Positions 7,569 through 35,300 of a stretch of 64,000 bases of DNA are shown here, piece after piece (the stretch's first letter is position 1; every line of letters starts with the position of its first letter). Origin of the DNA: a phage; the sequence record PZ445440.1; one strand, written 5' to 3'. The translations under genes and the position numbers were made by a program. The notes beneath the pieces were generated by a model. That model searched no databases, was not told the origin of the DNA, and saw nothing but the letters and a program-made list of their open reading frames with translations.

Positions 7569-8669
7569 TTACGCTGTGAAGATTTTATCCCACATCGCAA
7601 CAACTGCATCTCGATTATACTTCTTCCATACTGCTTCAGCACGTTTAACTCGAGCTTCGTATGTGTCAGTGAATTCTAATACAGCTTTTGTGTAAAGCGC
7701 AACTACTTCTTTCTTAGGAGTAGAGGAATCAATTTCTACACGCACAGTATCTGGGTCGTATTCGAATGTCGCATGAGGATAATCCTTAAAAACTAACTGG
7801 ATTACAGGGACACCTTTAGAGATGGCTTCAATAGAACTATTCTCTACCGTACCTGTGTCAGGACACGTATTAATAAGTGCTTTAGCTGTTTTAAGACGTT
7901 CCATGATTTCACTGTGTGGAGCATCAATAATAACAGGATACTTAGCCGGTGGTGCCCATTTGCTTGGACAGTATCCTGCACCATTTTCGCCTAGTGCTTT
8001 AATCGCTTCAAGAGCAACATCAGTACGACGCATTTTAGTGTCATAACGTTGTGCACTAATAATCAGATCAGTCGCCGGAAGAACTTCAGGTTTCTCATTC
8101 AAACAAATAACTGGATAATCTTCGGCTTCAAACAACGGATTTGCTCGCCAATAATCATAATCAATTTTGTCAGTCAGACCTGAAGTCATATAACAATATT
8201 TGCGTTCAAATTCACGGAAGGCTTTAGTAGGAGCATAACTCTTACCACCATTCTTATGAATTTGAATAGTCTGGTCCCAAATTTGAACAATGCCACGAGA
8301 TACCGGTTCAAATGGTGTTGCCATAAAATTCTTATGAACTTTAGAGAGACCTGCGTCTTTAATTGCCTGAACGGTTAGTTTAGTCGGTTCCGTAGTAACA
8401 ACAAAATCGTATTCATGGATGTCGGCTAGTTCAACAATCTTACGAGCCATAGTATAACTCATACCTAGACTGAATTTAGTCAGATGACCAACAGGATGAT
8501 GATTAACTTTCCAGTCACCAAACGTGTCATTATCAAAACCGATATAATCAATATCGGCACCAATAGAAACTAAATATTTCAACACATTTAAATGTACTGC
8601 TTCAAGACCACCTTGTACACGTTCTGGGTTAAATGGGACTGCGCGCGATGGGATAAACATAACTTTCAT
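7569..8669 (-). CDS. GT-B fold glycosyltransferase, candidate DNA (hmC) arabinosyltransferase
   Basis: 366 aa; C-terminal GTVENSSIEAISKGVPVI resembles the GT1/GT4 nucleotide-sugar binding motif; occupies the T4 gene 60/mobA slot; no T4 counterpart. Confidence 0.6.
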   Translation of the reverse strand: MKVMFIPSRAVPFNPERVQGGLEAVHLNVLKYLVSIGADIDYIGFDNDTFGDWKVNHHPVGHLTKFSLGMSYTMARKIVELADIHEYDFVVTTEPTKLTVQAIKDAGLSKVHKNFMATPFEPVSRGIVQIWDQTIQIHKNGGKSYAPTKAFREFERKYCYMTSGLTDKIDYDYWRANPLFEAEDYPVICLNEKPEVLPATDLIISAQRYDTKMRRTDVALEAIKALGENGAGYCPSKWAPPAKYPVIIDAPHSEIMERLKTAKALINTCPDTGTVENSSIEAISKGVPVIQLVFKDYPHATFEYDPDTVRVEIDSSTPKKEVVALYTKAVLEFTDTYEARVKRAEAVWKKYNRDAVVAMWDKIFTA

Positions 8670-20322: not shown

Positions 20323-20844
20323 TTAGTAACCATTATCCTGACGTTCAAAGTTGTGTTGGTTTTTCAGATAATACAGTTTGAAGATTTCTTCAGCAGAAAG
20401 TCCTAGACCTTGGAACATATTCAGAACAAAGTGGAGGATATCAATCATCTCGAATTTAATTTCAAGCTGGTCTTCAGGAGACAGTTCATCGATACGACGA
20501 TTTCGATATTCAGCATGTTGTGCTTTCCAAGGCTTCCATACAGAGCTAGCGGCTTTTTCACCATTGCTCATACCGCCGAGTGAAGTCAGCAGTTCACGGA
20601 ATTCATCATCAATATAATCTTTCTGATTACGCAGCCAATCAACAACATCACCAGCAGTAGCCAATTCATCAGGATGTTTGTTATGTTCAGGCTTGTCATT
20701 TGCCAGACGAACCTGTAAAGATTTCTGCATATCAAGCATTACCTGCAGTGGGTCTTTATCTTCGTGAATCAGAGCATTAAAATAAGCTTCTTCTGCTTTA
20801 TCAACACCAGAAATAAGTTGTGAACATTCGTTAAAGTGTGCCAT
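20323..20844 (-). CDS. 56: dCTP pyrophosphatase gp56 (MazG-like)
   Basis: 173 aa from MAHFNE... with AAGGA SD (T4 gp56 about 171 aa as I recall); synteny between soc and gene 61. Confidence 0.75.
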   Translation of the reverse strand: MAHFNECSQLISGVDKAEEAYFNALIHEDKDPLQVMLDMQKSLQVRLANDKPEHNKHPDELATAGDVVDWLRNQKDYIDDEFRELLTSLGGMSNGEKAASSVWKPWKAQHAEYRNRRIDELSPEDQLEIKFEMIDILHFVLNMFQGLGLSAEEIFKLYYLKNQHNFERQDNGY

Positions 20845-27468: not shown

Positions 27469-28612
27469 GGTCGTTTTCTATATCTGCTGCAGATGGAGCA
27501 TCAGAAGTTTTAACTGGAACCTTAGTTGTTGCTTTGCAATTAATAAGGTCGTTAACAGCGTCATCAACTTCTTTAATAGAAGAGATAGCACCTAGTTTAT
27601 ATTTGGTTTCAATTGCATCTCGGAAAGGTTTGTGTTTAAACAACGGTCCCCAGAATTCTACACAATCAGTAGCTTTAGCACGCCACGATTTCTCTTCACG
27701 AATCATTTCACCTGTTTCTTCGTCAAGGAATTCACGAGCATACCAACCAGCTTTAGGCTTAACTACAAAACCAATTTCAGTTGCCATTTCTAACAAGCCA
27801 CTGAATGGATCAATACCGCCATCAAAATTAACCGTGATTGGGAAAGTAGATTTCTCTTTAACTGTACGAGATTTTTCTGCTTTCAACGTGAAGTCATAAC
27901 CGGTCAATTCTGTACCTTCTTTAACCTGACGTTTAGAGATAAAAAATACCGTGTTGGCAGAGTAAAGAATACCTGTACCACCACCCATAATCTCTTTAGG
28001 ATATAGTCCGCCGATTTCCATTGCTGTATGGTTGATTGCAACACACGGAATATCTTTAATAGTCAGATAAGGAGTCACAATGCGGAACAGAGATTTAAGT
28101 GCCTTAGCACGAGACATATCACCTACAACTTTTTCGTTCAACGCATCTTCGGTTTCTTTCTTAGATGCAGTATTACCGATTGAATCGATAAAGATAATAA
28201 CTTTATCACCGCGTTCAATAGCGTCAAGCTGATTAGTCATATCGACTTTAAGTTGTTCGACAGACTGAATTGGTGTATGAACTACGCGGTCTAAATCAAC
28301 ACCCATCGAACGGAAGTAAGATTCTGAAGCACCGAATTCTGAGTCATAAAACAAACAGATCGCATCTTTATATTTCTTCATATACGCTGCGACCATAGTT
28401 AGTCCAAACAATGTTTTAAAATGTTTAGAAGGTGCAGCAAAAATAGTCAAGCCTGATTGCAATCCTGCATTCAGAGCACCACCTAGTGCAATATTCAACA
28501 TCGGAATACGAGTAGGGACTTCATCACGATTATTAAACAGCTTAGACTTAGTCAAGTCTGCAGTCATTTTAGAAGTAGAAGCTTTAATCAGACGAGATTT
28601 TAAATCAGACAT
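27440..28612 (-). CDS. uvsX: UvsX recombinase (RecA/Rad51 family)
   Basis: 390 aa; MSDLKSRLIKASTSK... and WYAREFLDEETGEMIREEKSWRAK match T4 UvsX from memory. Confidence 0.95.
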   Translation of the reverse strand: MSDLKSRLIKASTSKMTADLTKSKLFNNRDEVPTRIPMLNIALGGALNAGLQSGLTIFAAPSKHFKTLFGLTMVAAYMKKYKDAICLFYDSEFGASESYFRSMGVDLDRVVHTPIQSVEQLKVDMTNQLDAIERGDKVIIFIDSIGNTASKKETEDALNEKVVGDMSRAKALKSLFRIVTPYLTIKDIPCVAINHTAMEIGGLYPKEIMGGGTGILYSANTVFFISKRQVKEGTELTGYDFTLKAEKSRTVKEKSTFPITVNFDGGIDPFSGLLEMATEIGFVVKPKAGWYAREFLDEETGEMIREEKSWRAKATDCVEFWGPLFKHKPFRDAIETKYKLGAISSIKEVDDAVNDLINCKATTKVPVKTSDAPSAADIENDLDEMEDFDE

Positions 28613-28665
28613 TGTATTTTTCCATAGGCATCATTATATTTTACTCATGTTTAAAAGATAAGATG

Positions 28666-28693
28666 ATTATATACTAAGGGTTATACAGCATTT
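28666..28693 (-). promoter_or_regulatory. candidate MotA-dependent middle promoter for uvsX
   Basis: Minus AAATGCTGTA (MotA-box-like, one mismatch to TGCTTtA) followed 12 nt later by TATAAT. Confidence 0.35.
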
Positions 28694-28710
28694 AAAACTT
28701 TAAATGGCTC

Positions 28711-29259
28711 TTAACGAGCCCATTTGATGATTTCTGTAATCAAATCATTACGTTCGCTTGCATTAAATCCTATAACTTTGTTAGCACCATCATGATTAAG
28801 TAATTGATACGTTTGGATTTTGTTATGAATTGCAAACTCTTCAAAATGTGAAATGACTGTATTAAAACCGAATGAAGACAAAGTAATAAGGTCGTCTTCA
28901 AAACTTTCAGTCATTTCGTTACGTGTTAAAATAATTGTGAACACATCATGGTTTTGGCAAAGACGAATATAATCCTGTTCATAAACGTCAAGAACCGAGT
29001 CCGCATCTTGTCGAATACGTCCATAAACCCAGTTACTAATATACCCACGGTCTAACAGATAAATCTTAGTAGGGTCTAAATAATTCAACATCGTTTCGAA
29101 ACAGCCAACTTCGTTTCGAGACTTAACATCGAAACGCCCATCAACTGTTCGTTTAGGGAAATCAATCTTTACATATCTTTCACTAATTTCCATTACGTCA
29201 TTAATGAAAGTTGTTTTACCAGCATTATCCGGGCCGTCTACTAAAATAATTTTAGCCAT
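28711..29259 (-). CDS. P-loop nucleotide/nucleoside kinase-like protein (thymidylate-kinase-like fold)
   Basis: 182 aa; Walker A ILVDGPDNAGKTT and a DRGY motif (YLLDRGYISNWVYG) reminiscent of dNMP kinases; GAGGAA SD; sits in the T4 beta-gt slot. Confidence 0.6.
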   Translation of the reverse strand: MAKIILVDGPDNAGKTTFINDVMEISERYVKIDFPKRTVDGRFDVKSRNEVGCFETMLNYLDPTKIYLLDRGYISNWVYGRIRQDADSVLDVYEQDYIRLCQNHDVFTIILTRNEMTESFEDDLITLSSFGFNTVISHFEEFAIHNKIQTYQLLNHDGANKVIGFNASERNDLITEIIKWAR

Positions 29260-29260
29260 T

Positions 29261-30160
29261 TTATTCCTCGATTACGACATCTTCGTATTTAGGTATATTA
29301 TACGGTGAAGAAATTAAAGCATTAAAGTAGATGAACTCACCAAGACCTGGATGGAATACTTCTTCAGGATTTTCGAAATATTGAATCTTCGGACGTCCTT
29401 TAAGAATTTGATAGTACTCAGTTTTAGTTGGTTTAAAAATTCGAATCAGCGCTTCTTCAGGATACTTATTTCTGTCGAAGCTATTATTTGGATCGGTTAT
29501 ATAAAGCGGTTGACCTAATTGAATTGCACATTCAACCACTTGTTCAAAACGATAGCATGGGTCACTAATTCGAAATGGATGAAAAATACCATCTAGATGA
29601 ATAGGAGCCAAATCACCTACAAGACGCTGCATGATGGAAGGACGTATAACTTTCTGGGTTATGATAATCTTATTACCATCGGCACCTGCGTTAACCAGCA
29701 CTTCTTTTTGACGTTCATTCAACACAGTAGTTTGAAGTGAACGATTAACAGACAACATATCGGTTTTTAAGAATTCGTCAATATAAAAACGTGGTTTATT
29801 AGGGTCTGCAGTGATATTGAAATTGAATTCTACATCAAAAGCGCCGTCATATCCAGTGATATCTGTGATTAGAAAATCACAATCATAATAAGCAATTAAT
29901 GAATCAACCACAAATTCATTTTCAGACCAGAAATATTTACGAGTGTTATACGCGTTATCTTTATACCATAATGGAACAAACTTAAATTCTGGGAAAAGAC
30001 GTTCACATTCTTTAATATCAGATGCATTACGTGGATATGTAATCACATCACCCGGATTAGCACGGTGCAAATGAAGTTGGAAGTTGCCATCCTTAAGGAT
30101 AGCATACTGTCCAGTTTCATAAGACCGCATACTCAAGATAGGTACGCGGAAAATAGCCAT
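29261..30160 (-). CDS. hypothetical protein (299 aa), candidate novel DNA sugar-transferase
   Basis: No recognisable motifs; translationally coupled to gene 42 (stop/start overlap); occupies the beta-gt position. Confidence 0.6.
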   Translation of the reverse strand: MAIFRVPILSMRSYETGQYAILKDGNFQLHLHRANPGDVITYPRNASDIKECERLFPEFKFVPLWYKDNAYNTRKYFWSENEFVVDSLIAYYDCDFLITDITGYDGAFDVEFNFNITADPNKPRFYIDEFLKTDMLSVNRSLQTTVLNERQKEVLVNAGADGNKIIITQKVIRPSIMQRLVGDLAPIHLDGIFHPFRISDPCYRFEQVVECAIQLGQPLYITDPNNSFDRNKYPEEALIRIFKPTKTEYYQILKGRPKIQYFENPEEVFHPGLGEFIYFNALISSPYNIPKYEDVVIEE

Positions 30161-30876
30161 TAGTCAAGGAATCCTTTAACATAATCAAAATCACGTTCAA
30201 ACACATGGGCACTTACCATGGTATGAGTATAATCACCAACTTCTACACCACATTCGTTAGCGATATAATGAAGTAATTTTCCTTGGAGATAAAAATCCAA
30301 CTGCATAACAACAGCACAGTTCTGAGAACGCATATGACAGTGGGTATAAAGCTTACCATCACGAATATAATAAGTCACTGAGTCAGTACATGGATATTCA
30401 AGCGTTTCGTCTGAATCAAGCAAAGCCTGATCAGAACTTTCTAGAATTTGGAACACAACTCTTCGAGAGTTAGGCTTCTCTTTAAGTTCTTTTAGAAGAG
30501 CTGGTAATTGGGCCGCAATGCGAGGACCGTAGAAAGTGTTGAAGTTCGCAGGCAAAGCATCTGATTTTGGTTTAGAAATAAATTTAGCGACATTAGGATA
30601 TGCCTTAAACGCTTCTTCTGCATCAGTACCACCAGAAATCATAAACTTCCAGAAGTCTTCGGCATATTCATAAGAGATGCGGTTAATACGTGGGTCGGTC
30701 ATTTTGAATGATGATGGAGTGTCAACAACTACTGTCATAGACCCAATTTCATTACAACGTCCAATACGAGAATCAGTTACGAATTCCGGGTTTTCTAAAA
30801 TTTCACGATTGACTGCTTTAAATGCGGTTTGAAAATCTGCGGCTTTGATATATTTCATTGTGTTATGTTTTCCCAT
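30160..30876 (-). CDS. 42: dCMP hydroxymethylase gp42 (thymidylate synthase family)
   Basis: 238 aa; thymidylate-synthase-like region HCHMRSQNCAVVMQLDFYLQ; synteny upstream of the uvsX block. Confidence 0.7.
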   Translation of the reverse strand: MGKHNTMKYIKAADFQTAFKAVNREILENPEFVTDSRIGRCNEIGSMTVVVDTPSSFKMTDPRINRISYEYAEDFWKFMISGGTDAEEAFKAYPNVAKFISKPKSDALPANFNTFYGPRIAAQLPALLKELKEKPNSRRVVFQILESSDQALLDSDETLEYPCTDSVTYYIRDGKLYTHCHMRSQNCAVVMQLDFYLQGKLLHYIANECGVEVGDYTHTMVSAHVFERDFDYVKGFLD

Positions 30877-30918
30877 GTTTACCTCAATACAATTTATTAT
30901 ATACTCGATTCGTAAAGC

Positions 30919-31158
30919 TTATTTGAATTTCTTGGCAGTGTTGATATACCGTAAAGCTTCAGCATCGATACTTCCAAGAACACTATGAAGAAATGCATCA
31001 GCGTAGTATTCTAATTGAACAGGTTCTTTAATCACTTTAGCCGCTTTGGTTTCAAACAGGCCCATCAGGGCCTTTTTAAGAATTTGTTCGTTGCTGTTAA
31101 TTTTAATAGTCAAAATCTCTTCATTAAGTTGGTGGTTAAAAGTTTTTCTAGAAATCAT
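30919..31158 (-). CDS. hypothetical protein (79 aa)
   Basis: ORF with ATGA overlap to upstream gene. Confidence 0.55.
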   Translation of the reverse strand: MISRKTFNHQLNEEILTIKINSNEQILKKALMGLFETKAAKVIKEPVQLEYYADAFLHSVLGSIDAEALRYINTAKKFK

Positions 31159-32315
31159 TCCGGGTACCTCAAAGCGTCGTCAGAGTTAGTTATATCAATA
31201 ATAGATATAGAATTTTCTGATAACCCATTTTTAGATAACTGACGTTTATAATATCTTTCACAATATGTACACGTCGTCCCGCAGATTTCATTAGCACAAT
31301 CGAAATCTGGATGTCTGAACCACCTTTTTTCTAAAAAGCCATCTAACAAAGAGGTTTCAATATTTACTGTATGTGAAAACTCAGTTTCGTTTTCAAGAGT
31401 GAAAATAGTCTCTAAAGGCTTCCACAGTTCTAACAAATTACCTTCAAACTTTTCAGAAGCGTATGCTTCAAGAACTTTCAAAATGTAGTCTGTGCTACCT
31501 GTACGTCCTGAAACTTTGAATTGAGTGATACCAATATCATTATAAAGTTTCAAATCTTGGGGACGAACAAAACGAGTTCTCAACCAGTTAAATGGGTCTG
31601 TATCACGAGCTTTAATACAGTGCTGCATTGGATACCCGTTTAAGGATTTAGCATCATCAGCTGTAACATCAGTACTATGGAAAATATAGCAAGAGTCACG
31701 ATAGCTACAATGTGTTGTATACCCTTTACCAGCATTAGAACAGAACTCATTTACAAGAACTTCAAATATTATATTGTTCTTATTGCAAAACTCTGCTGCA
31801 CGCTTCAGGAAAGAAACTGAACGGTTCTTATGAATTCCACAGCAGACCTTTTTGATATTATATTGGTCATGCAAGTATTTGATTTGAGTTACAGCATCGA
31901 CATGTAGAATTGTTGAAACTTCAATCTCAATGTCTTTATTGACTTCACGAACAATTTCCATAACAACAGGGTTAGCGATAGTAATACGCCATACGCCTAT
32001 TGACCAAAGATACTGAACATAATCCTGAATAGCTTTCTTCTTCCACTCAACTAGTTCTCTTTTTGAACCAGGATTTATCGTGTTGAGTGTATAGTTAAAG
32101 CAAATACCTAATTCGTTACAACGTTTAACGTAATCTTCTAACATCTTTTTGTCAACGTCAGGAAGCCTAAAATCAGGTCTGGCTGCTACAAAAGCCATTT
32201 CTCTTGTAGAGCCGTATACTTCATTTATCAAGCTATTAGGATAAGTTTTATTGAGCTCTACGATTTTATCAAGAAGAGCTAAATCAAAATTCGTTCCGAT
32301 TTTAAAAGTATTCAT
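31155..32315 (-). CDS. Cys-rich protein of unknown function (386 aa); weak peptidase-U32-like resemblance
   Basis: Cys clusters (EVLVNEFCSNAGKGYTTHCSYRDSCY; CANEICGTTCTYC); loose resemblance to the U32 signature region; not verifiable without a profile search. Confidence 0.6.
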   Translation of the reverse strand: MNTFKIGTNFDLALLDKIVELNKTYPNSLINEVYGSTREMAFVAARPDFRLPDVDKKMLEDYVKRCNELGICFNYTLNTINPGSKRELVEWKKKAIQDYVQYLWSIGVWRITIANPVVMEIVREVNKDIEIEVSTILHVDAVTQIKYLHDQYNIKKVCCGIHKNRSVSFLKRAAEFCNKNNIIFEVLVNEFCSNAGKGYTTHCSYRDSCYIFHSTDVTADDAKSLNGYPMQHCIKARDTDPFNWLRTRFVRPQDLKLYNDIGITQFKVSGRTGSTDYILKVLEAYASEKFEGNLLELWKPLETIFTLENETEFSHTVNIETSLLDGFLEKRWFRHPDFDCANEICGTTCTYCERYYKRQLSKNGLSENSISIIDITNSDDALRYPE

Positions 32316-32371
32316 TTTTTTGCATCTCGCGTTAATTGATGCGATGGTTTTTGCAGGTCTTACTTAAATTA

Positions 32372-32758
32372 TTATAGATTCGGTTTATATGATTTAAATG
32401 TTTCGAATTCGCCTTTATTCATAAGAGCTTTGAATTCGTCAGGACGCATAGCTTTGTCGTCGATAATCCAATCATATACTGGTTTATGTGTTAGCAAATT
32501 ATGGTACTTCAATCCAATGTTTGCTAAGTTCTGAATCAGACTTGGGAGAATGTCGATTGCTATACGACCAGGACCTACTGACTTCATACCGCGAGCAGTG
32601 TAAAGCGTTATGGTATGCCCTGCATCATACAGGGCATTAATGGCAGACACCATTTCGACGTCTGGTTTGAAGTTCACATAATCACGGTTGTTATTCCACT
32701 CTGTTATACAATCATCGACATCAAAACAAAGATTAAGCATGTTTTCTACACGGTGCAT
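32372..32758 (-). CDS. HAD-superfamily phosphatase (small, cap-less)
   Basis: Motif I FDVDDCI, motif II ITLYTARG, motif III/IV K...DWIIDDKA; ATG overlaps the stop of the upstream NTase/kinase gene. Confidence 0.7.
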   Translation of the reverse strand: MHRVENMLNLCFDVDDCITEWNNNRDYVNFKPDVEMVSAINALYDAGHTITLYTARGMKSVGPGRIAIDILPSLIQNLANIGLKYHNLLTHKPVYDWIIDDKAMRPDEFKALMNKGEFETFKSYKPNL

Positions 32759-34443
32759 TAGATTCGTTCCCATTGATGAGTGATATCGCCACCGATTGGA
32801 CGATAGGAAACACCAGTTTCTTTATCAGTTAGTACCCATTTACCAGGATTTTTTGTAATAAGAGTAGCCGTTACAGGTTCTGCTACGTCATAACTAATAG
32901 AGCCGTCTTGAAGTACACGGCCCATGTTACGTAATTGCTTAGTCAGAAGTTCCATACCTTTATAATATGCGGCTACCGCTTTAAGTGGATTATTCTTGAA
33001 ATAACCACCTAATGCAATCCAGATAATTGCCACCGCCAAATGATGATACTCGTTAAACGAACTCATCTTTCCATATTTGTAAATTAATGGATTGATGTTA
33101 ATAGTCACATTACAAGTTGTTTCATCAATAGTAAACTGTCCCCAGGTCGGATTAGCATTGAATTCATCATAACCTGAAACAGCGTAAAGCACTTTAGCTT
33201 CATCGTACAATTTTGGCCCGTAAATCTTGGTTTCACCAAAATATCCACGAGGGTCGATAAACTTGACTTCGCCATTATCAGTAATCATAGTATTACTGAA
33301 GTTCGGGTCACCATGAATAACAGAGTACTGTCCCTGAGAACGGTTATGATAACGAATAAGGTGTTCTAAAGCTTGTTTCAACATTGGCTTCAGACGTCCA
33401 ATCTTAGTGTAGTTCACATGTGTGATTTTACCAAATGAATCAATCAATGGTTGAATGCTTTCACAACGATCAATAACTTTCGTATAGAATTCTTTAGTGA
33501 AATCACGACGGACAGTTTCAGGACTTACAAAATAAGTGTCTGTGCTGAATTTCAGTGCATCTAAAATTGCATCAACAATTTGTGGACGAGCAAGACTTGA
33601 TTTGGATTTAATATATTCAAATGCCGGCTTACCTTTAATGCGTTCCATTTCAAAGTTATTTTCATTAACAGAAACTAACTGAGGAACTGAATCTGATTTC
33701 ACTTTCAAGTACCACGAAATCTCATCTTTCTGAAGAGCTCGACCCTGTTCGGTTAATGCGAATTTAGTTACAGTTTCTTCACCAATTTCAACTGCATTAA
33801 AACTACGATTAAGTTCACGAACTTCATGAGCTTTTTCAAGTTTAGGCATATCACCTAAATCAATTAGATTCATAAGCTCTGATTTATTGAATGCGCCGCT
33901 GTAAAGGAATTCTACGAAATCACGTCCTTTGCAGTATTCATGAATTTCCTCATCAGTAGAACCCATATAGAATTCCCAGTCTTTGAACTGATAAATTCCT
34001 ACAACATTACCGCCTGTTGCACCTACATTAGTGATATTTTCACCGTCGAAATTATATCGACATTCGTCACCCTTAACATAGATTGCGTTAACATTCCAAG
34101 ACCATGAACCAAAATCAGGAATAATATCACACCAGTTAACAATTACGTTATGGCCGTCTAAATCTTTGTGTAATTTAGCAAGAGCATAAGCAGAACCATA
34201 CGCTTCATCAACTGTACGAATAGTCACATTGAACCCTTCTTGCTCACAATAAGCTCGAACAGTTTCAGCAAATTTTGAATGAACTACTACAATAATTTCA
34301 TCTGCGCCAAGGTCAGAATAAATTGTATACAAATTGCTCAGAATAGTGTCTTGTTTATAGTTAACAAGCACCTTAGGAATATGATGCGTTATTGGATACA
34401 AACGAGTTGCCAGTCCAGCACCAAGAATAACAGCTTTTTTCAT
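32758..34443 (-). CDS. bifunctional sugar-1-phosphate nucleotidyltransferase / anomeric sugar kinase (LicC-like N-domain + APH/choline-kinase-like C-domain)
   Basis: 561 aa; N-terminal MKKAVILGAGLATRLYPITHHIPKVLV (NTP-transferase signature); C-terminal VIHGDPNFSNTMI (Brenner HGDxxxxN) and FIDPRGYFG. Confidence 0.8.
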   Translation of the reverse strand: MKKAVILGAGLATRLYPITHHIPKVLVNYKQDTILSNLYTIYSDLGADEIIVVVHSKFAETVRAYCEQEGFNVTIRTVDEAYGSAYALAKLHKDLDGHNVIVNWCDIIPDFGSWSWNVNAIYVKGDECRYNFDGENITNVGATGGNVVGIYQFKDWEFYMGSTDEEIHEYCKGRDFVEFLYSGAFNKSELMNLIDLGDMPKLEKAHEVRELNRSFNAVEIGEETVTKFALTEQGRALQKDEISWYLKVKSDSVPQLVSVNENNFEMERIKGKPAFEYIKSKSSLARPQIVDAILDALKFSTDTYFVSPETVRRDFTKEFYTKVIDRCESIQPLIDSFGKITHVNYTKIGRLKPMLKQALEHLIRYHNRSQGQYSVIHGDPNFSNTMITDNGEVKFIDPRGYFGETKIYGPKLYDEAKVLYAVSGYDEFNANPTWGQFTIDETTCNVTININPLIYKYGKMSSFNEYHHLAVAIIWIALGGYFKNNPLKAVAAYYKGMELLTKQLRNMGRVLQDGSISYDVAEPVTATLITKNPGKWVLTDKETGVSYRPIGGDITHQWERI

Positions 34444-34484
34444 GTTGTGGTCCTCATTGGTAAGTAGAAGTATTGTACACTATT

Positions 34485-34628
34485 CTAGTTAAAGCATTCA
34501 TACTTCGCTTGTAGTCCAATCATAATCCATCCAATTACAAGTGTTGGAATCATTACTGGAGCCGTTAAGCTCCAGTAGATAGTCATGACAAGCATCAATA
34601 GTAAAAGTCCTATTGTTATTGTTTTCAT
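34485..34628 (-). CDS. small membrane protein (47 aa)
   Basis: Hand translation MKTITIGLLLLMLVMTIYWSLTAPVMIPTLVIGWIMIGLQAKYECFN; ATGA overlap with the isomerase stop. Confidence 0.4.
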   Translation of the reverse strand: MKTITIGLLLLMLVMTIYWSLTAPVMIPTLVIGWIMIGLQAKYECFN

Positions 34629-35260
34629 TGTTCGCCTCGTAACATGGCACCTAGTGCGCCGCCTGGATGGAACTTAAGGAAATCATTAGAGGTAAATCCA
34701 CGTTCAGACGAAAGGTTGATAGCGAACGTATCGATAAGCGCTAACAACAATGTAGTAGACATTGTCGGAGCTAAAGAGTTCTCGTCAACTTCTACCGCGA
34801 TACCGGTACAGAACGTATAATCAAAAAGAGCTTCGTATTCTTGTGGAATGTCAGGGTTACAATGTAACAGAATCTGTTTAACCTGAGGACGAATCATACG
34901 AAGATGTTTAGCAACACCTATCATTTCTTCAGTCTTACCAGAACGACTGATGTGAACTAATACATCATTAGGTGCAATAAATCCTGCGTCGCCATGAGAA
35001 TAATGCCCGGTGTTCAAGTACATACTCGGGATACCTAGTGAAGCAAAAGTCTCGGAAGCTTTAGTTGCGATATTAGCATTCTTACCAACACCTGTAATAA
35101 TTACACGACTTTCGTAATTACTCAGTCCAGGGCGACGAAGAGTTTCAAGAATAGCATTATATCGGGCAGGGTTTTGACTAATTATTTTAGCCATAGTGGC
35201 AAGAGATGAAGCTTGTTTTACGATTGCGTCAATAGCGATAGTGATTGGTGTAGTTTTCAT
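34625..35260 (-). CDS. D-arabinose-5-phosphate isomerase, SIS domain only (KdsD/GutQ/KpsF-like, no CBS pair)
   Basis: 211 aa; strong similarity to E. coli KdsD SIS domain from memory: GVGKNANIATKASETFASLGIPS, HGDAGFIAPNDVLVHISRSGKTEE, LAPTMSTTLLLALID, HPGGALG. Confidence 0.85.
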   Translation of the reverse strand: MKTTPITIAIDAIVKQASSLATMAKIISQNPARYNAILETLRRPGLSNYESRVIITGVGKNANIATKASETFASLGIPSMYLNTGHYSHGDAGFIAPNDVLVHISRSGKTEEMIGVAKHLRMIRPQVKQILLHCNPDIPQEYEALFDYTFCTGIAVEVDENSLAPTMSTTLLLALIDTFAINLSSERGFTSNDFLKFHPGGALGAMLRGEQ

Positions 35261-35300
35261 ATTTCTCTCATTTAATTAGTTGGCCATCCTTGGCATTATA

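What the first reader, a model, noticed from the sequence alone, without database searches (positions are those of the whole stretch)
32758..34443. Bifunctional nucleotidyltransferase-kinase (LicC-like + APH/choline-kinase-like) in a phage
One 561-aa polypeptide carries an N-terminal G-x-G-x-R sugar-phosphate nucleotidyltransferase signature (ILGAGLATRLYPIT) and a C-terminal eukaryotic-like kinase/APH fold with the Brenner motif HGDPNFSN. Such fusions typically act as salvage-type sugar 1-kinase/pyrophosphorylases. Substrate and nucleotide specificity cannot be read from sequence.
Basis: seen in the sequence. Interest (0 to 1): 0.7.

Follow-up and report, generated by a model that had tools for sequence, protein, structure and literature searches.

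The report
Phage UDP-arabinose kinase/uridylyltransferase (AfhE-type)

Summary

The window is 100% identical to phage ChristianSchoenbein (Bas46), an RB69-like Mosigvirus. The protein is 98-99% identical to RB69 gp52:53. Lee et al. [quoted passage not shown]

The gene sits in the known arabinosyl-5-hydroxycytosine cluster, with a SIS isomerase, a HAD phosphatase, a ThyA-like 5-hydroxy-dCMP synthase and an arabinosyltransferase.

The likely route is de novo:
- ribulose-5-P to arabinose-5-P;
- to arabinose-1,5-bisphosphate;
- to arabinose-1-P;
- to UDP-arabinofuranose.

This follows the logic of the nucleotide-heptose pathway.

Verdict: already known, low interest. I could not test enzyme activity or identity to HY126 AfhE.

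The parts
32758..34443 (-). Whole gene: bifunctional kinase / sugar-1-phosphate nucleotidyltransferase, 561 aa. It is bas46_0146 (QXV76990.1), the orthologue of RB69 gp52:53 (ORF53_52c), and is AfhE-type.
   Evidence: ORF. 100% identical to MZ501056.1, where it is annotated 'putative enzyme involved in UDP-arabinose biosynthesis'. 98-99% identical to RB69 in two reading frames. Full-length match to phrog_4098, E 1e-294.
33820..34443 (-). N-terminal domain (aa 1 to about 208): sugar-1-phosphate nucleotidyltransferase fold of the RmlA/LicC/MurU type.
34387..34428 (-). NTP-binding signature ILGAGLATRLYPIT (aa 6-19), followed by P23-K24.
   Evidence: Translated. Aligns to the LicC signature KAIILAAGLGTRLRPLTENTPK.
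32893..33819 (-). C-terminal domain (aa about 209-517): kinase with a protein-kinase-like fold (APH / choline kinase / fructosamine kinase).
33292..33315 (-). Catalytic loop, Brenner motif HGDPNFSN (aa 377-384).
   Evidence: Aligns to the RIO2 'liHGDfNefN' catalytic loop in a profile search.
33235..33261 (-). FIDPRGYFG (aa 395-403): the equivalent of the DFG Mg-binding Asp (D397), plus invariant R399.
   Evidence: Invariant columns D397, P398, R399 and G400. Aligned with the 'iD' of kinase profiles.
32761..32892 (-). C-terminal tail (aa 518-561). It is present in T4-like phage orthologues and missing from distant homologues. Role unknown.
   Evidence: Homologues at 30-40% identity cover only 87-91% of the query. 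Model pLDDT for this stretch is 82-92.
32372..32773 (-). HAD-type sugar-phosphate phosphatase (the counterpart of AfhF and of RB69 gp51). Its start overlaps the end of the kinase/transferase gene.
   Evidence: TIGR01689 capsule biosynthesis phosphatase, E 4.3e-13. 99% identical to RB69p051. Overlap of 16 nt, or a TAATG stop-start junction. Role taken from PMC13326640.
34625..35260 (-). SIS-domain arabinose-5-phosphate isomerase (counterpart of RB69 gp55). It lacks the CBS domains of KdsD.
   Evidence: Pfam SIS E 9.3e-10. KpsF/GutQ E 8.3e-32 and KdsD E 3.8e-30. phrog_5670 'arabinose 5-phosphate isomerase' E 3e-116.
30160..30876 (-). Thymidylate-synthase homologue. It is 100% identical to RB69 gp48, which is reported as a 5-hydroxy-dCMP synthase.
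   Evidence: Pfam Thymidylat_synt E 2.4e-15. 100% identity to RB69p048. Function from PMC13326640.
29261..30160 (-). Putative DNA arabinosyltransferase 1 (counterpart of RB69 gp46:47).
   Evidence: 98-100% identical to RB69p046/047. Assignment from PMC13326640. No Pfam hit.
28711..29259 (-). Thymidylate-kinase-like nucleotide kinase (counterpart of RB69 gp45).
   Evidence: Annotated. 98% identical to RB69p045. Weak dTMP-kinase P-loop hit.
31155..32315 (-). Peptidase-U32-family protein (counterpart of RB69 gp50) inside the cluster. Role unresolved.
   Evidence: Pfam Peptidase_U32 E 7.3e-11. Labelled 'sugar or heterocycle reductase' in PMC13326640 Table 1.
7569..8669 (-). Second arabinosyltransferase (counterpart of RB69 ORF003c / gp3), located between rIIA and the topoisomerase large subunit.
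   Evidence: Annotated 'putative hmC-arabinosyltransferase'. phrog_8302 E 4.6e-222. Roles from PMC6024577 and PMC13326640.
20323..20844 (-). dCTPase/dCDPase (gp56-type). It supplies dCMP and removes dCTP.
   Evidence: Annotation. Listed as part of the pathway in PMC13326640 Table 1.

Best explanation
The gene encodes the AfhE-type bifunctional enzyme of the phage pathway that makes arabinosyl-5-hydroxycytosine DNA.

**Proposed route**
1. The neighbouring SIS isomerase converts host ribulose-5-phosphate to D-arabinose-5-phosphate.
2. The C-terminal protein-kinase-like domain of this protein (K227, E241, D379, N384, D397) uses ATP to phosphorylate the anomeric C1-OH. This gives arabinofuranose-1,5-bisphosphate.
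3. The HAD phosphatase removes the 5-phosphate. Its gene overlaps the 3' end of this gene.
4. The N-terminal nucleotidyltransferase domain (G10, R14, K24, D106, D195/D198) condenses arabinofuranose-1-phosphate with UTP. This gives UDP-arabinofuranose and pyrophosphate.
5. UDP-Araf is the donor for the phage arabinosyltransferases (29261-30160 and 7569-8669). These decorate 5-hydroxycytosine, whose mononucleotide precursor is made by the ThyA homologue. The modification protects phage DNA from host nucleases.

**Basis of each step**
- Shown here: the domain folds, the conserved catalytic residues, orthology to RB69 gp52:53, and the gene context.
- Taken from the literature on close relatives: the kinase substrate, the order of steps, and UDP as the nucleotide.
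- Inferred: that these properties transfer to this particular protein.
For: - **Identity and orthology.** The window is 100% identical to Bas46. The protein is 98-99% identical to RB69 gp52:53. [quoted passage not shown]
- **Catalytic residues.** They are invariant or nearly so across 108 homologues down to 26% identity.
- **Phosphorylated substrate.** Several invariant basic residues in the kinase domain (R213, R326, R399, K417, K488) fit a phosphorylated sugar. This is inference.
- **Context in the window.** SIS A5P isomerase, HAD phosphatase, ThyA homologue, glycosyltransferase and Tmk-like kinase lie in one co-directional cluster. The stop of this gene overlaps the start of the HAD gene.
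- **Context elsewhere.** A 350-kb T4-like phage contig keeps the same module at only 27-48% identity. In distant homologues HAD, SIS, nucleotidyltransferase and kinase are fused in one polypeptide.
- **Experiments in relatives.**
  - DLP3 glycosyltransferases use UDP-Araf in vitro.
  - Bas46 DNA is reported to carry 5-arabinose-arabinose-hydroxy-cytosine.
  - The Thanatos orthologue TH1_060 (54% identity) is essential for phage propagation.
Against: - No activity has been measured for this protein itself.
- I could not obtain the HY126 AfhE sequence or the primary paper. The link to AfhE therefore rests on Lee et al.'s statement and on orthology to RB69.
- Table 1 of the same paper still lists the alternative order, with the phosphatase acting first and the kinase acting on free arabinose.
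- The purified Thanatos orthologue made no NDP-xylose from xylose-1-phosphate with any of five NTPs. That substrate was not arabinofuranose-1-phosphate.
- This protein's own kinase domain stays below Pfam cut-offs.
- Nucleotide specificity cannot be read from the sequence. Several profile and annotation matches are to guanylyl- or cytidylyltransferases (HddC, LicC).
Confidence: 0.85

Rival explanations
1. The HAD phosphatase first makes free D-arabinose, or the sugar is scavenged. The kinase domain then phosphorylates free arabinose at C1, and the transferase makes NDP-arabinose. This would resemble FKP or AmgK-MurU.
For: - Table 1 of PMC13326640 labels the RB69 C-terminal domain 'Phosphorylates Ara to Araf1p' and gp51 'dephosphorylates Araf5p to Ara'.
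- Structurally related kinases such as choline kinase, APH and fructosamine kinase act on unphosphorylated substrates.
Against: - The text of the same paper, citing biochemistry on HY126 AfhE and AfhF, gives arabinose-5-P to the 1,5-bisphosphate to arabinose-1-P.
- The cluster encodes an A5P isomerase, so the input is a sugar phosphate.
- The kinase domain has many invariant basic residues.
- The HAD phosphatase resembles bisphosphate-type and capsule-type phosphatases.
- The kinase is not a GHMP kinase as in FKP.
Confidence: 0.1
2. A LicA/LicC-like or AmgK/MurU-like enzyme that activates choline, or an amino sugar such as MurNAc or GlcNAc. It would serve a purpose unrelated to DNA modification.
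For: - LicC is the best structural and sequence match for the N-terminal domain.
- LicA, choline kinases and MurU are among the hits.
- Some GenBank records call the protein 'bifunctional protein GlmU'.
Against: - Identity to these enzymes is only 11-20%.
- All NCBIfam equivalog scores are far below cut-off, for example MurU 24.8 against 250 bits.
- The gene is always linked to an A5P isomerase and a ThyA homologue, even in distant phages.
- Arabinose, not choline or a hexosamine, is the sugar found on Mosigvirus DNA.
Confidence: 0.02
3. The N-terminal domain is a GT-A glycosyltransferase that transfers the sugar to cytosine, rather than a nucleotidyltransferase. This idea was considered for RB69 ORF053c and for Thanatos TH1_060.
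For: - CDD places the N-terminus in the GT-A superfamily (PMC6024577).
- The Thanatos authors kept TH1_060 as a glycosyltransferase candidate.
Against: - The protein scored poorly against phage glucosyltransferase HMMs.
- TH1_060 showed no transfer to DNA or nucleotides in vitro.
- Separate GT-B transferases are present in the phage.
Confidence: 0.03

Closest known systems
AfhE of Escherichia phage HY126 (He et al., Nat Chem Biol 2026, as summarised in PMC13326640), with its counterparts RB69 gp52:53 (ORF53_52c), Acinetobacter phage DLP3 gp82 and Shewanella phage Thanatos TH1_060
   Same: - Same two-domain architecture of about 560 aa.
- Same cluster partners: SIS isomerase, HAD phosphatase (AfhF), ThyA-like 5-hydroxy-dCMP synthase and glycosyltransferases.
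- 98-99% identical to RB69 gp52:53 and 54% identical to TH1_060.
- Same DNA modification reported for Bas46.
   Different: Nothing substantive was found. Identity to HY126 AfhE itself could not be measured. Bas46 and RB69 carry mono- and di-arabinose, whereas DLP3 carries up to three. That difference lies in the transferases, not in this enzyme.
Nucleotide-heptose pathway: GmhA (SIS isomerase), HldE or HddA (kinase), GmhB (HAD phosphatase), HldE C-terminal domain or HddC (nucleotidyltransferase)
   Same: - Identical chemical logic: ketose phosphate to aldose phosphate, then anomeric phosphorylation to a bisphosphate, then removal of the distal phosphate, then NDP-sugar formation.
- The kinase and transferase are fused, as in HldE.
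   Different: - The kinase here has a protein-kinase-like (APH/choline kinase) fold, not PfkB (HldE) or GHMP (HddA).
- The domain order is transferase then kinase.
- The sugar is a C5 furanose.
- The product feeds DNA modification rather than LPS or capsule.
LicA / LicC (choline kinase and CTP:phosphocholine cytidylyltransferase, S. pneumoniae) and AmgK / MurU (anomeric MurNAc/GlcNAc kinase and uridylyltransferase)
   Same: - Same pair of folds: an APH-like kinase plus a minimal sugar/alcohol-phosphate nucleotidyltransferase.
   Different: - These are separate proteins acting on unphosphorylated choline or amino sugars in salvage routes, with no phosphatase step.
- Identity is only 11-20%.
- NCBIfam equivalog cut-offs are not reached.
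FKP (Bacteroides L-fucokinase/GDP-fucose pyrophosphorylase) and the Leishmania arabino/fucokinase-pyrophosphorylases (from my own knowledge)
   Same: A bifunctional kinase plus pyrophosphorylase that makes an NDP-sugar. The Leishmania enzymes make GDP-D-arabinopyranose.
   Different: - Their kinase domain is of the GHMP family, and they act on free sugar in a salvage route.
- No GHMP similarity was seen here.
- The product here is a UDP-furanose.

Membership tests
AfhE-type phage arabinose-5-P kinase / UDP-arabinose pyrophosphorylase | N-terminal sugar-1-P nucleotidyltransferase fused to a C-terminal protein-kinase-like kinase, about 550-570 aa | tested here: met
   (phrog_4098 full-length match, E 1e-294).
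AfhE-type phage arabinose-5-P kinase / UDP-arabinose pyrophosphorylase | Orthology to the published members (RB69 gp52:53, TH1_060, DLP3 gp82) | tested here: met
   98-99% identical to RB69. 54% identical over 100% of the length to Thanatos TH1_060. DLP3 itself was not compared; its Acinetobacter-phage relatives are 51-56% identical.
AfhE-type phage arabinose-5-P kinase / UDP-arabinose pyrophosphorylase | Sequence identity to HY126 AfhE, the biochemically characterised member | not testable with these tools
   The primary paper is not held. HY126 is mentioned in only one held phage paper, which gives no accession.
AfhE-type phage arabinose-5-P kinase / UDP-arabinose pyrophosphorylase | Clustered with an A5P isomerase (SIS), a HAD phosphatase, a ThyA-like 5-hydroxy-dCMP synthase and arabinosyltransferase(s) | tested here: met
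   The same module is kept in a distant 350-kb phage contig.
AfhE-type phage arabinose-5-P kinase / UDP-arabinose pyrophosphorylase | Kinase activity on D-arabinose-5-P and UTP:arabinose-1-P uridylyltransferase activity | not testable with these tools
   Reported only for HY126 AfhE, via PMC13326640.
Sugar-1-phosphate nucleotidyltransferase (Pfam PF00483; RmlA/LicC/MurU fold) | Profile match above the curated cut-off | tested here: met
   39.1 bits against a cut-off of 21.2, E 8.5e-10. The match covers aa 3-99 only.
Sugar-1-phosphate nucleotidyltransferase (Pfam PF00483; RmlA/LicC/MurU fold) | N-terminal GxGTR(L/M)xPxT...PK NTP-binding signature | tested here: met
   G10-L-A12-T13-R14-L-Y-P17-I-T19...P23-K24. 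The second Gly is Ala. G10, R14 and K24 are conserved in 107 of 108 homologues.
Sugar-1-phosphate nucleotidyltransferase (Pfam PF00483; RmlA/LicC/MurU fold) | Complete fold, including the C-terminal half with the metal and sugar-phosphate-binding acidic residues | tested here: met
APH / choline kinase (protein-kinase-like) phosphotransferases | Profile match above the curated cut-off | tested here: inconclusive
   The query itself gives only sub-threshold hits (Fructosamin_kin 17.1 against 22.4; EcKL; RIO1). 14 of 21 diverse family members hit APH, best E 1.1e-9. A profile search of the PDB gives only E about 0.03, all to kinases.
APH / choline kinase (protein-kinase-like) phosphotransferases | Brenner motif HxDxxxxN, a downstream Mg-binding Asp, and the beta3 Lys / alphaC Glu pair | tested here: met
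   D379, N384, D397 and K227 are invariant; H377 and E241 are each in 107 of 108. Their positions fit the strands and helices of the model.
APH / choline kinase (protein-kinase-like) phosphotransferases | Bilobal kinase fold | tested here: met
FKP-type salvage fucokinase/pyrophosphorylase | GHMP-family kinase domain | tested here: not met
HldE-type heptose kinase/adenylyltransferase | PfkB (ribokinase-like) kinase plus a cytidylyltransferase-like (HIGH-motif) transferase | tested here: not met
   Both domains have different folds here. Only the pathway logic is shared.

The most novel reading that the evidence does not exclude
The family is much wider than phage DNA modification. Homologues at about 30-35% identity fuse HAD phosphatase, SIS isomerase, nucleotidyltransferase and kinase into one polypeptide of 890-955 aa. 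They occur on contigs that look like giant viruses (MutS with an HNH domain, and RNA polymerase Rpb2 as neighbours) and in a eukaryotic transcriptome. If these are single-chain NDP-D-arabinofuranose synthases for capsid or cell-surface glycans, then the phage DNA pathway was recruited from, or donated to, an uncharacterised D-arabinofuranose glycan pathway in eukaryotic viruses. For the window gene itself, the only novel reading left is a different nucleotide or substrate from AfhE, which I consider unlikely.
Probability: 0.25. Interest if true: 0.45.

Novelty: already known. Interest (0 to 1): 0.2.

Why it matters
Arabinosylated 5-hydroxycytosine makes Mosigvirus DNA resistant to many restriction and CRISPR nucleases and sensitive to some type IV systems. 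The enzyme that supplies UDP-arabinofuranose is therefore central to that arms race. It is also a useful biocatalyst, because UDP-Araf is hard to obtain.

This has already been recognised:
- The gene was flagged in RB69 in 2018.
- The Bas46 GenBank record already carries a UDP-arabinose annotation.
- The pathway was characterised biochemically for a homologue in 2025-2026.

The present analysis adds only independent confirmation by structure and conservation, and it corrects the 'salvage' framing.

Tried and rejected
- **Single-sequence AlphaFold2.** It gave an unusable model (pLDDT 33). I repeated it with a 108-sequence alignment.
- **Whole-family profile against the PDB.** HAD hits from the four-domain fusions swamped the results. 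I rebuilt a profile of the C-terminal domain alone (A2).
- **C-terminal profile against the PDB.** It gave only marginal kinase hits (E about 0.03). The kinase assignment therefore rests on fold comparison, motifs and family-level Pfam hits.
- **AFDB50 fold search.** This library was unavailable.
- **Primary papers.** He et al. 2026 and Mahler et al. 2025 are not held. No HY126 sequence or accession could be found.
- **Promoter and terminator scan of the cluster.** It found nothing above shuffled expectation.
- **PDB sequence search.** No solved structure of this family turned up.
- **Readings rejected.** The GT-A glycosyltransferase, GlmU, mannose-1-P guanylyltransferase and choline-activation readings are dealt with under the rival explanations.
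Full report
**Observation**

The window holds a single ORF at 32758..34443 on the minus strand (ATG start, 561 aa). A GAGGA ribosome-binding site lies 8 nt upstream.

One small correction applies to the first motif. Aligned to LicC, it reads G10-L-A12-T13-R14, so the second glycine of the canonical GxGTR is alanine here. In the family that position is A, G or S. HGDPNFSN fits the Brenner pattern HxDxxxxN exactly.

**Where the window comes from**

Nucleotides 28600-35300 are 100% identical to Escherichia phage ChristianSchoenbein (Bas46, MZ501056.1), a Mosigvirus. They are about 98% identical to roughly 150 other RB69-like phage records.

In that record the ORF is bas46_0146, annotated 'putative enzyme involved in UDP-arabinose biosynthesis'. 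A tblastn search against RB69 (NC_004928) gives 98.2% identity over aa 1-218 and 99.4% over aa 219-561, in two reading frames. Thomas et al. 2018 showed by re-sequencing and expression that the RB69 split into ORF053c and ORF052c is a one-base sequencing error, and that the real product is a 561-aa protein, ORF53_52c (PMC6024577).

**Domain analysis, done independently**

*N-terminal domain*
- Pfam NTP_transferase matches aa 3-99 above the gathering score (E 8.5e-10).
- NCBIfam gives many sub-threshold hits to sugar-1-phosphate nucleotidyltransferases such as Arch_glmU, AglF, RmlA, MurU and HddC.
- The best PDB sequence match is LicC, 1jyk (E 2e-5).

*C-terminal domain at sequence level*
- The half of this protein itself gives only sub-threshold protein-kinase-like hits: Fructosamin_kin, EcKL and RIO1.
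- 14 of 21 diverse C-terminal domains of the family hit Pfam APH, best E 1.1e-9.
- All other families hit belong to the same kinase superfamily.

*Structure*
- AlphaFold2 failed without an alignment (pLDDT 33).
- With 108 homologues it gave a confident two-domain model (pLDDT 95.2, pTM 0.92).
- All 50 Foldseek hits listed against the PDB are nucleotidyltransferase-domain proteins, nearly all sugar-1-phosphate enzymes such as RmlA, MurU, GMPPB, LicC and HddC.

*Conservation across 108 homologues down to 26% identity*
- The NTP-binding residues G10, R14 and K24 are each conserved in 107 of 108.
- The acidic residues D106, D195 and D198 are invariant.
- Of the kinase catalytic set, K227, D379, N384 and D397 are invariant, and E241 and H377 are each in 107 of 108.

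Both domains therefore look catalytically competent. The boundary lies near aa 208-210. It agrees with phrog_21938, which covers aa 211-517 alone.

**Genomic context**

The gene lies in a co-directional block between uvsX and DNA polymerase. In T4 this position holds beta-glucosyltransferase and gene 42. Listed in order of increasing window coordinate, which is opposite to the direction of transcription, the block contains:
- a Tmk-like kinase (28711-29259);
- a glycosyltransferase (29261-30160);
- a ThyA homologue (30160-30876);
- a 79-aa ORF;
- a peptidase-U32-family protein (31155-32315);
- a HAD phosphatase (32372-32773);
- the target gene;
- a 47-aa hydrophobic ORF;
- a SIS-domain A5P isomerase (34625-35260).

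The stop codon of the target gene overlaps the start of the phosphatase gene, either by a 16-nt overlap or at a TAATG junction. This suggests translational coupling. The second arabinosyltransferase (7569-8669) and the dCTPase (20323-20844) are also in the window.

The association is old. A 350-kb T4-like phage contig keeps SIS (48% identity), kinase/transferase (34%), a HAD gene, the ThyA homologue (37%), the glycosyltransferase (37%) and the Tmk-like kinase (27%) side by side. More distant homologues fuse HAD, SIS, nucleotidyltransferase and kinase in one chain of about 900 aa. Thomas et al. had already noted such a link, through a SIS domain fused to this family in Butyrivibrio proteins.

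**What the literature says**

- Thomas et al. 2018 found arabinose on RB69 DNA and proposed ORF53_52c and ORF055c as UDP-arabinose synthesis genes.
- Lee et al. 2026 (PMC13326640) showed that the base is arabinosylated 5-hydroxycytosine, not hmC. The ThyA homologue makes 5-hydroxy-dCMP, and DLP3 transferases use UDP-Araf in vitro.
- They report, citing He et al. [quoted passage not shown] AfhF is described as the Mg-dependent phosphatase acting on the 1,5-bisphosphate. Citing He et al. together with Mahler et al. (Cell Host Microbe 2025), they list Bas46 among the phages carrying this modification.
- A 2025 preprint states that Bas46 DNA contains 5-arabinose-arabinose-hydroxy-cytosine.
- The Thanatos orthologue TH1_060 (54% identical) can be knocked out only with complementation in trans. 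In vitro it made no NDP-xylose from xylose-1-phosphate (PMC12838424).
- I could not read the two primary papers or obtain the HY126 sequence.

**Mechanism**

The best-supported route has four steps:
1. The SIS enzyme converts ribulose-5-P to arabinose-5-P.
2. The C-terminal kinase domain converts this to arabinofuranose-1,5-bisphosphate.
3. The HAD phosphatase converts this to arabinofuranose-1-P.
4. The N-terminal transferase domain, with UTP, converts this to UDP-Araf. The two GT-B transferases then use UDP-Araf on 5-hydroxycytosine.

This matches the chemical logic of the nucleotide-heptose pathway (GmhA, HldE or HddA, GmhB, HddC), but the kinase fold is different. The folds, residues, orthology and context are shown here. 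The substrate, the order of steps and the nucleotide come from work on relatives. Their transfer to Bas46 is inference, made strong by the 98-99% identity to RB69.

The invariant basic residues in the kinase domain (R213, R326, R399, K417, K488) fit a phosphorylated substrate. I could not inspect the model coordinates, so that point remains inference.

The 'salvage-type sugar 1-kinase' framing is probably wrong. The flanking isomerase and phosphatase, together with the cited biochemistry, point to a de novo bisphosphate route. The FKP analogy also fails, because FKP has a GHMP kinase.

That is not met: they do align, although the kinase half of this one sequence does so only at family and structure level.

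**Novelty and score**

The gene, its domain structure, its role and the pathway are already in the literature and in the GenBank annotation of this very phage. Novelty is 'already known' and interest is 0.2.

The one thread that goes beyond the published picture, as far as I could see, concerns the four-domain fusions. They occur on contigs whose neighbours (MutS-HNH, Rpb2, RNA_pol_N) look like giant viruses, and in a eukaryotic transcriptome. Weaker structural matches in Indivirus and other giant viruses point the same way.

Noticed in passing
L003 8001-10781 (NCBI GCA_013558355.1, contig JACCDH010973257.1); proteins P0084, P0088, P0089, P0091, P0092: Homologues of 890-955 aa fuse HAD phosphatase, SIS isomerase, nucleotidyltransferase and kinase in one chain. 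That is the whole arabinose-activation pathway in a single polypeptide. P0084 sits beside MutS(I/III/V)-HNH, RNA polymerase Rpb2 and RNA_pol_N, which looks like a giant-virus contig. P0091 comes from a EukProt transcriptome.
   Followed up: partly
L006 5135-13303 (JGI Ga0558064_0000047, a 350-kb contig): A very large T4-like phage contig keeps the SIS, kinase/transferase, HAD, ThyA-homologue, GT and Tmk-like module at 27-48% identity. It adds a GT2-family (GT-A) glycosyltransferase and has no U32 gene. It probably carries a different glycosylated 5-hydroxycytosine.
   Followed up: partly
window 31155-32315 (-): A peptidase-U32-family protein (Pfam E 7e-11, with a weak UbiU hit) lies inside the arabinosylation cluster. 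No U32 counterpart is listed for DLP3 in Table 1 of PMC13326640, and I found none in the jumbo-phage module. From my own knowledge, U32 proteins include O2-independent hydroxylases such as UbiU/V, TrhP and RlhA. It could therefore be an anaerobic alternative for cytosine C5 hydroxylation, since the ThyA homologue is reported to need O2. Its role is unresolved.
   Followed up: no
window 34485-34628 (-): A 47-aa, very hydrophobic ORF (MKTITIGLLLLMLVMTIYWSLTAPVMIPTLVIGWIMIGLQAKYECFN) lies between the SIS gene and the kinase/transferase gene. It is annotated as hypothetical. The RB69 counterpart is noted as 'similar to T4 42-imm intercistronic region'.
   Followed up: no
window 30919-31158 (-): A 79-aa ORF with no family hit lies between the U32 gene and the ThyA homologue. 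It is conserved in RB69 at 96% identity.
   Followed up: no
window 32758-32773: The end of the kinase/transferase gene overlaps the start of the HAD phosphatase gene. Bas46 and RB69 annotate different start codons for the phosphatase: an ATG 16 nt inside the upstream gene, or the ATG of a TAATG stop-start junction.
   Followed up: partly
window 29261-30160 (-) and RB69 NC_004928 24597-25497: The first arabinosyltransferase is one 299-aa ORF in Bas46 but is split into RB69p046 and RB69p047 in the RB69 reference. PMC13326640 attributes that split to a sequencing error. The same kind of split affects gp52/53.
   Followed up: yes
window 32372-32773 (-): The HAD phosphatase's best curated family match is TIGR01689, the EcbF/BcbF 'capsule biosynthesis phosphatase' (E 4e-13). 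PHROGs and RefSeq label it 'phosphoheptose isomerase', which looks like a mis-annotation.
   Followed up: partly
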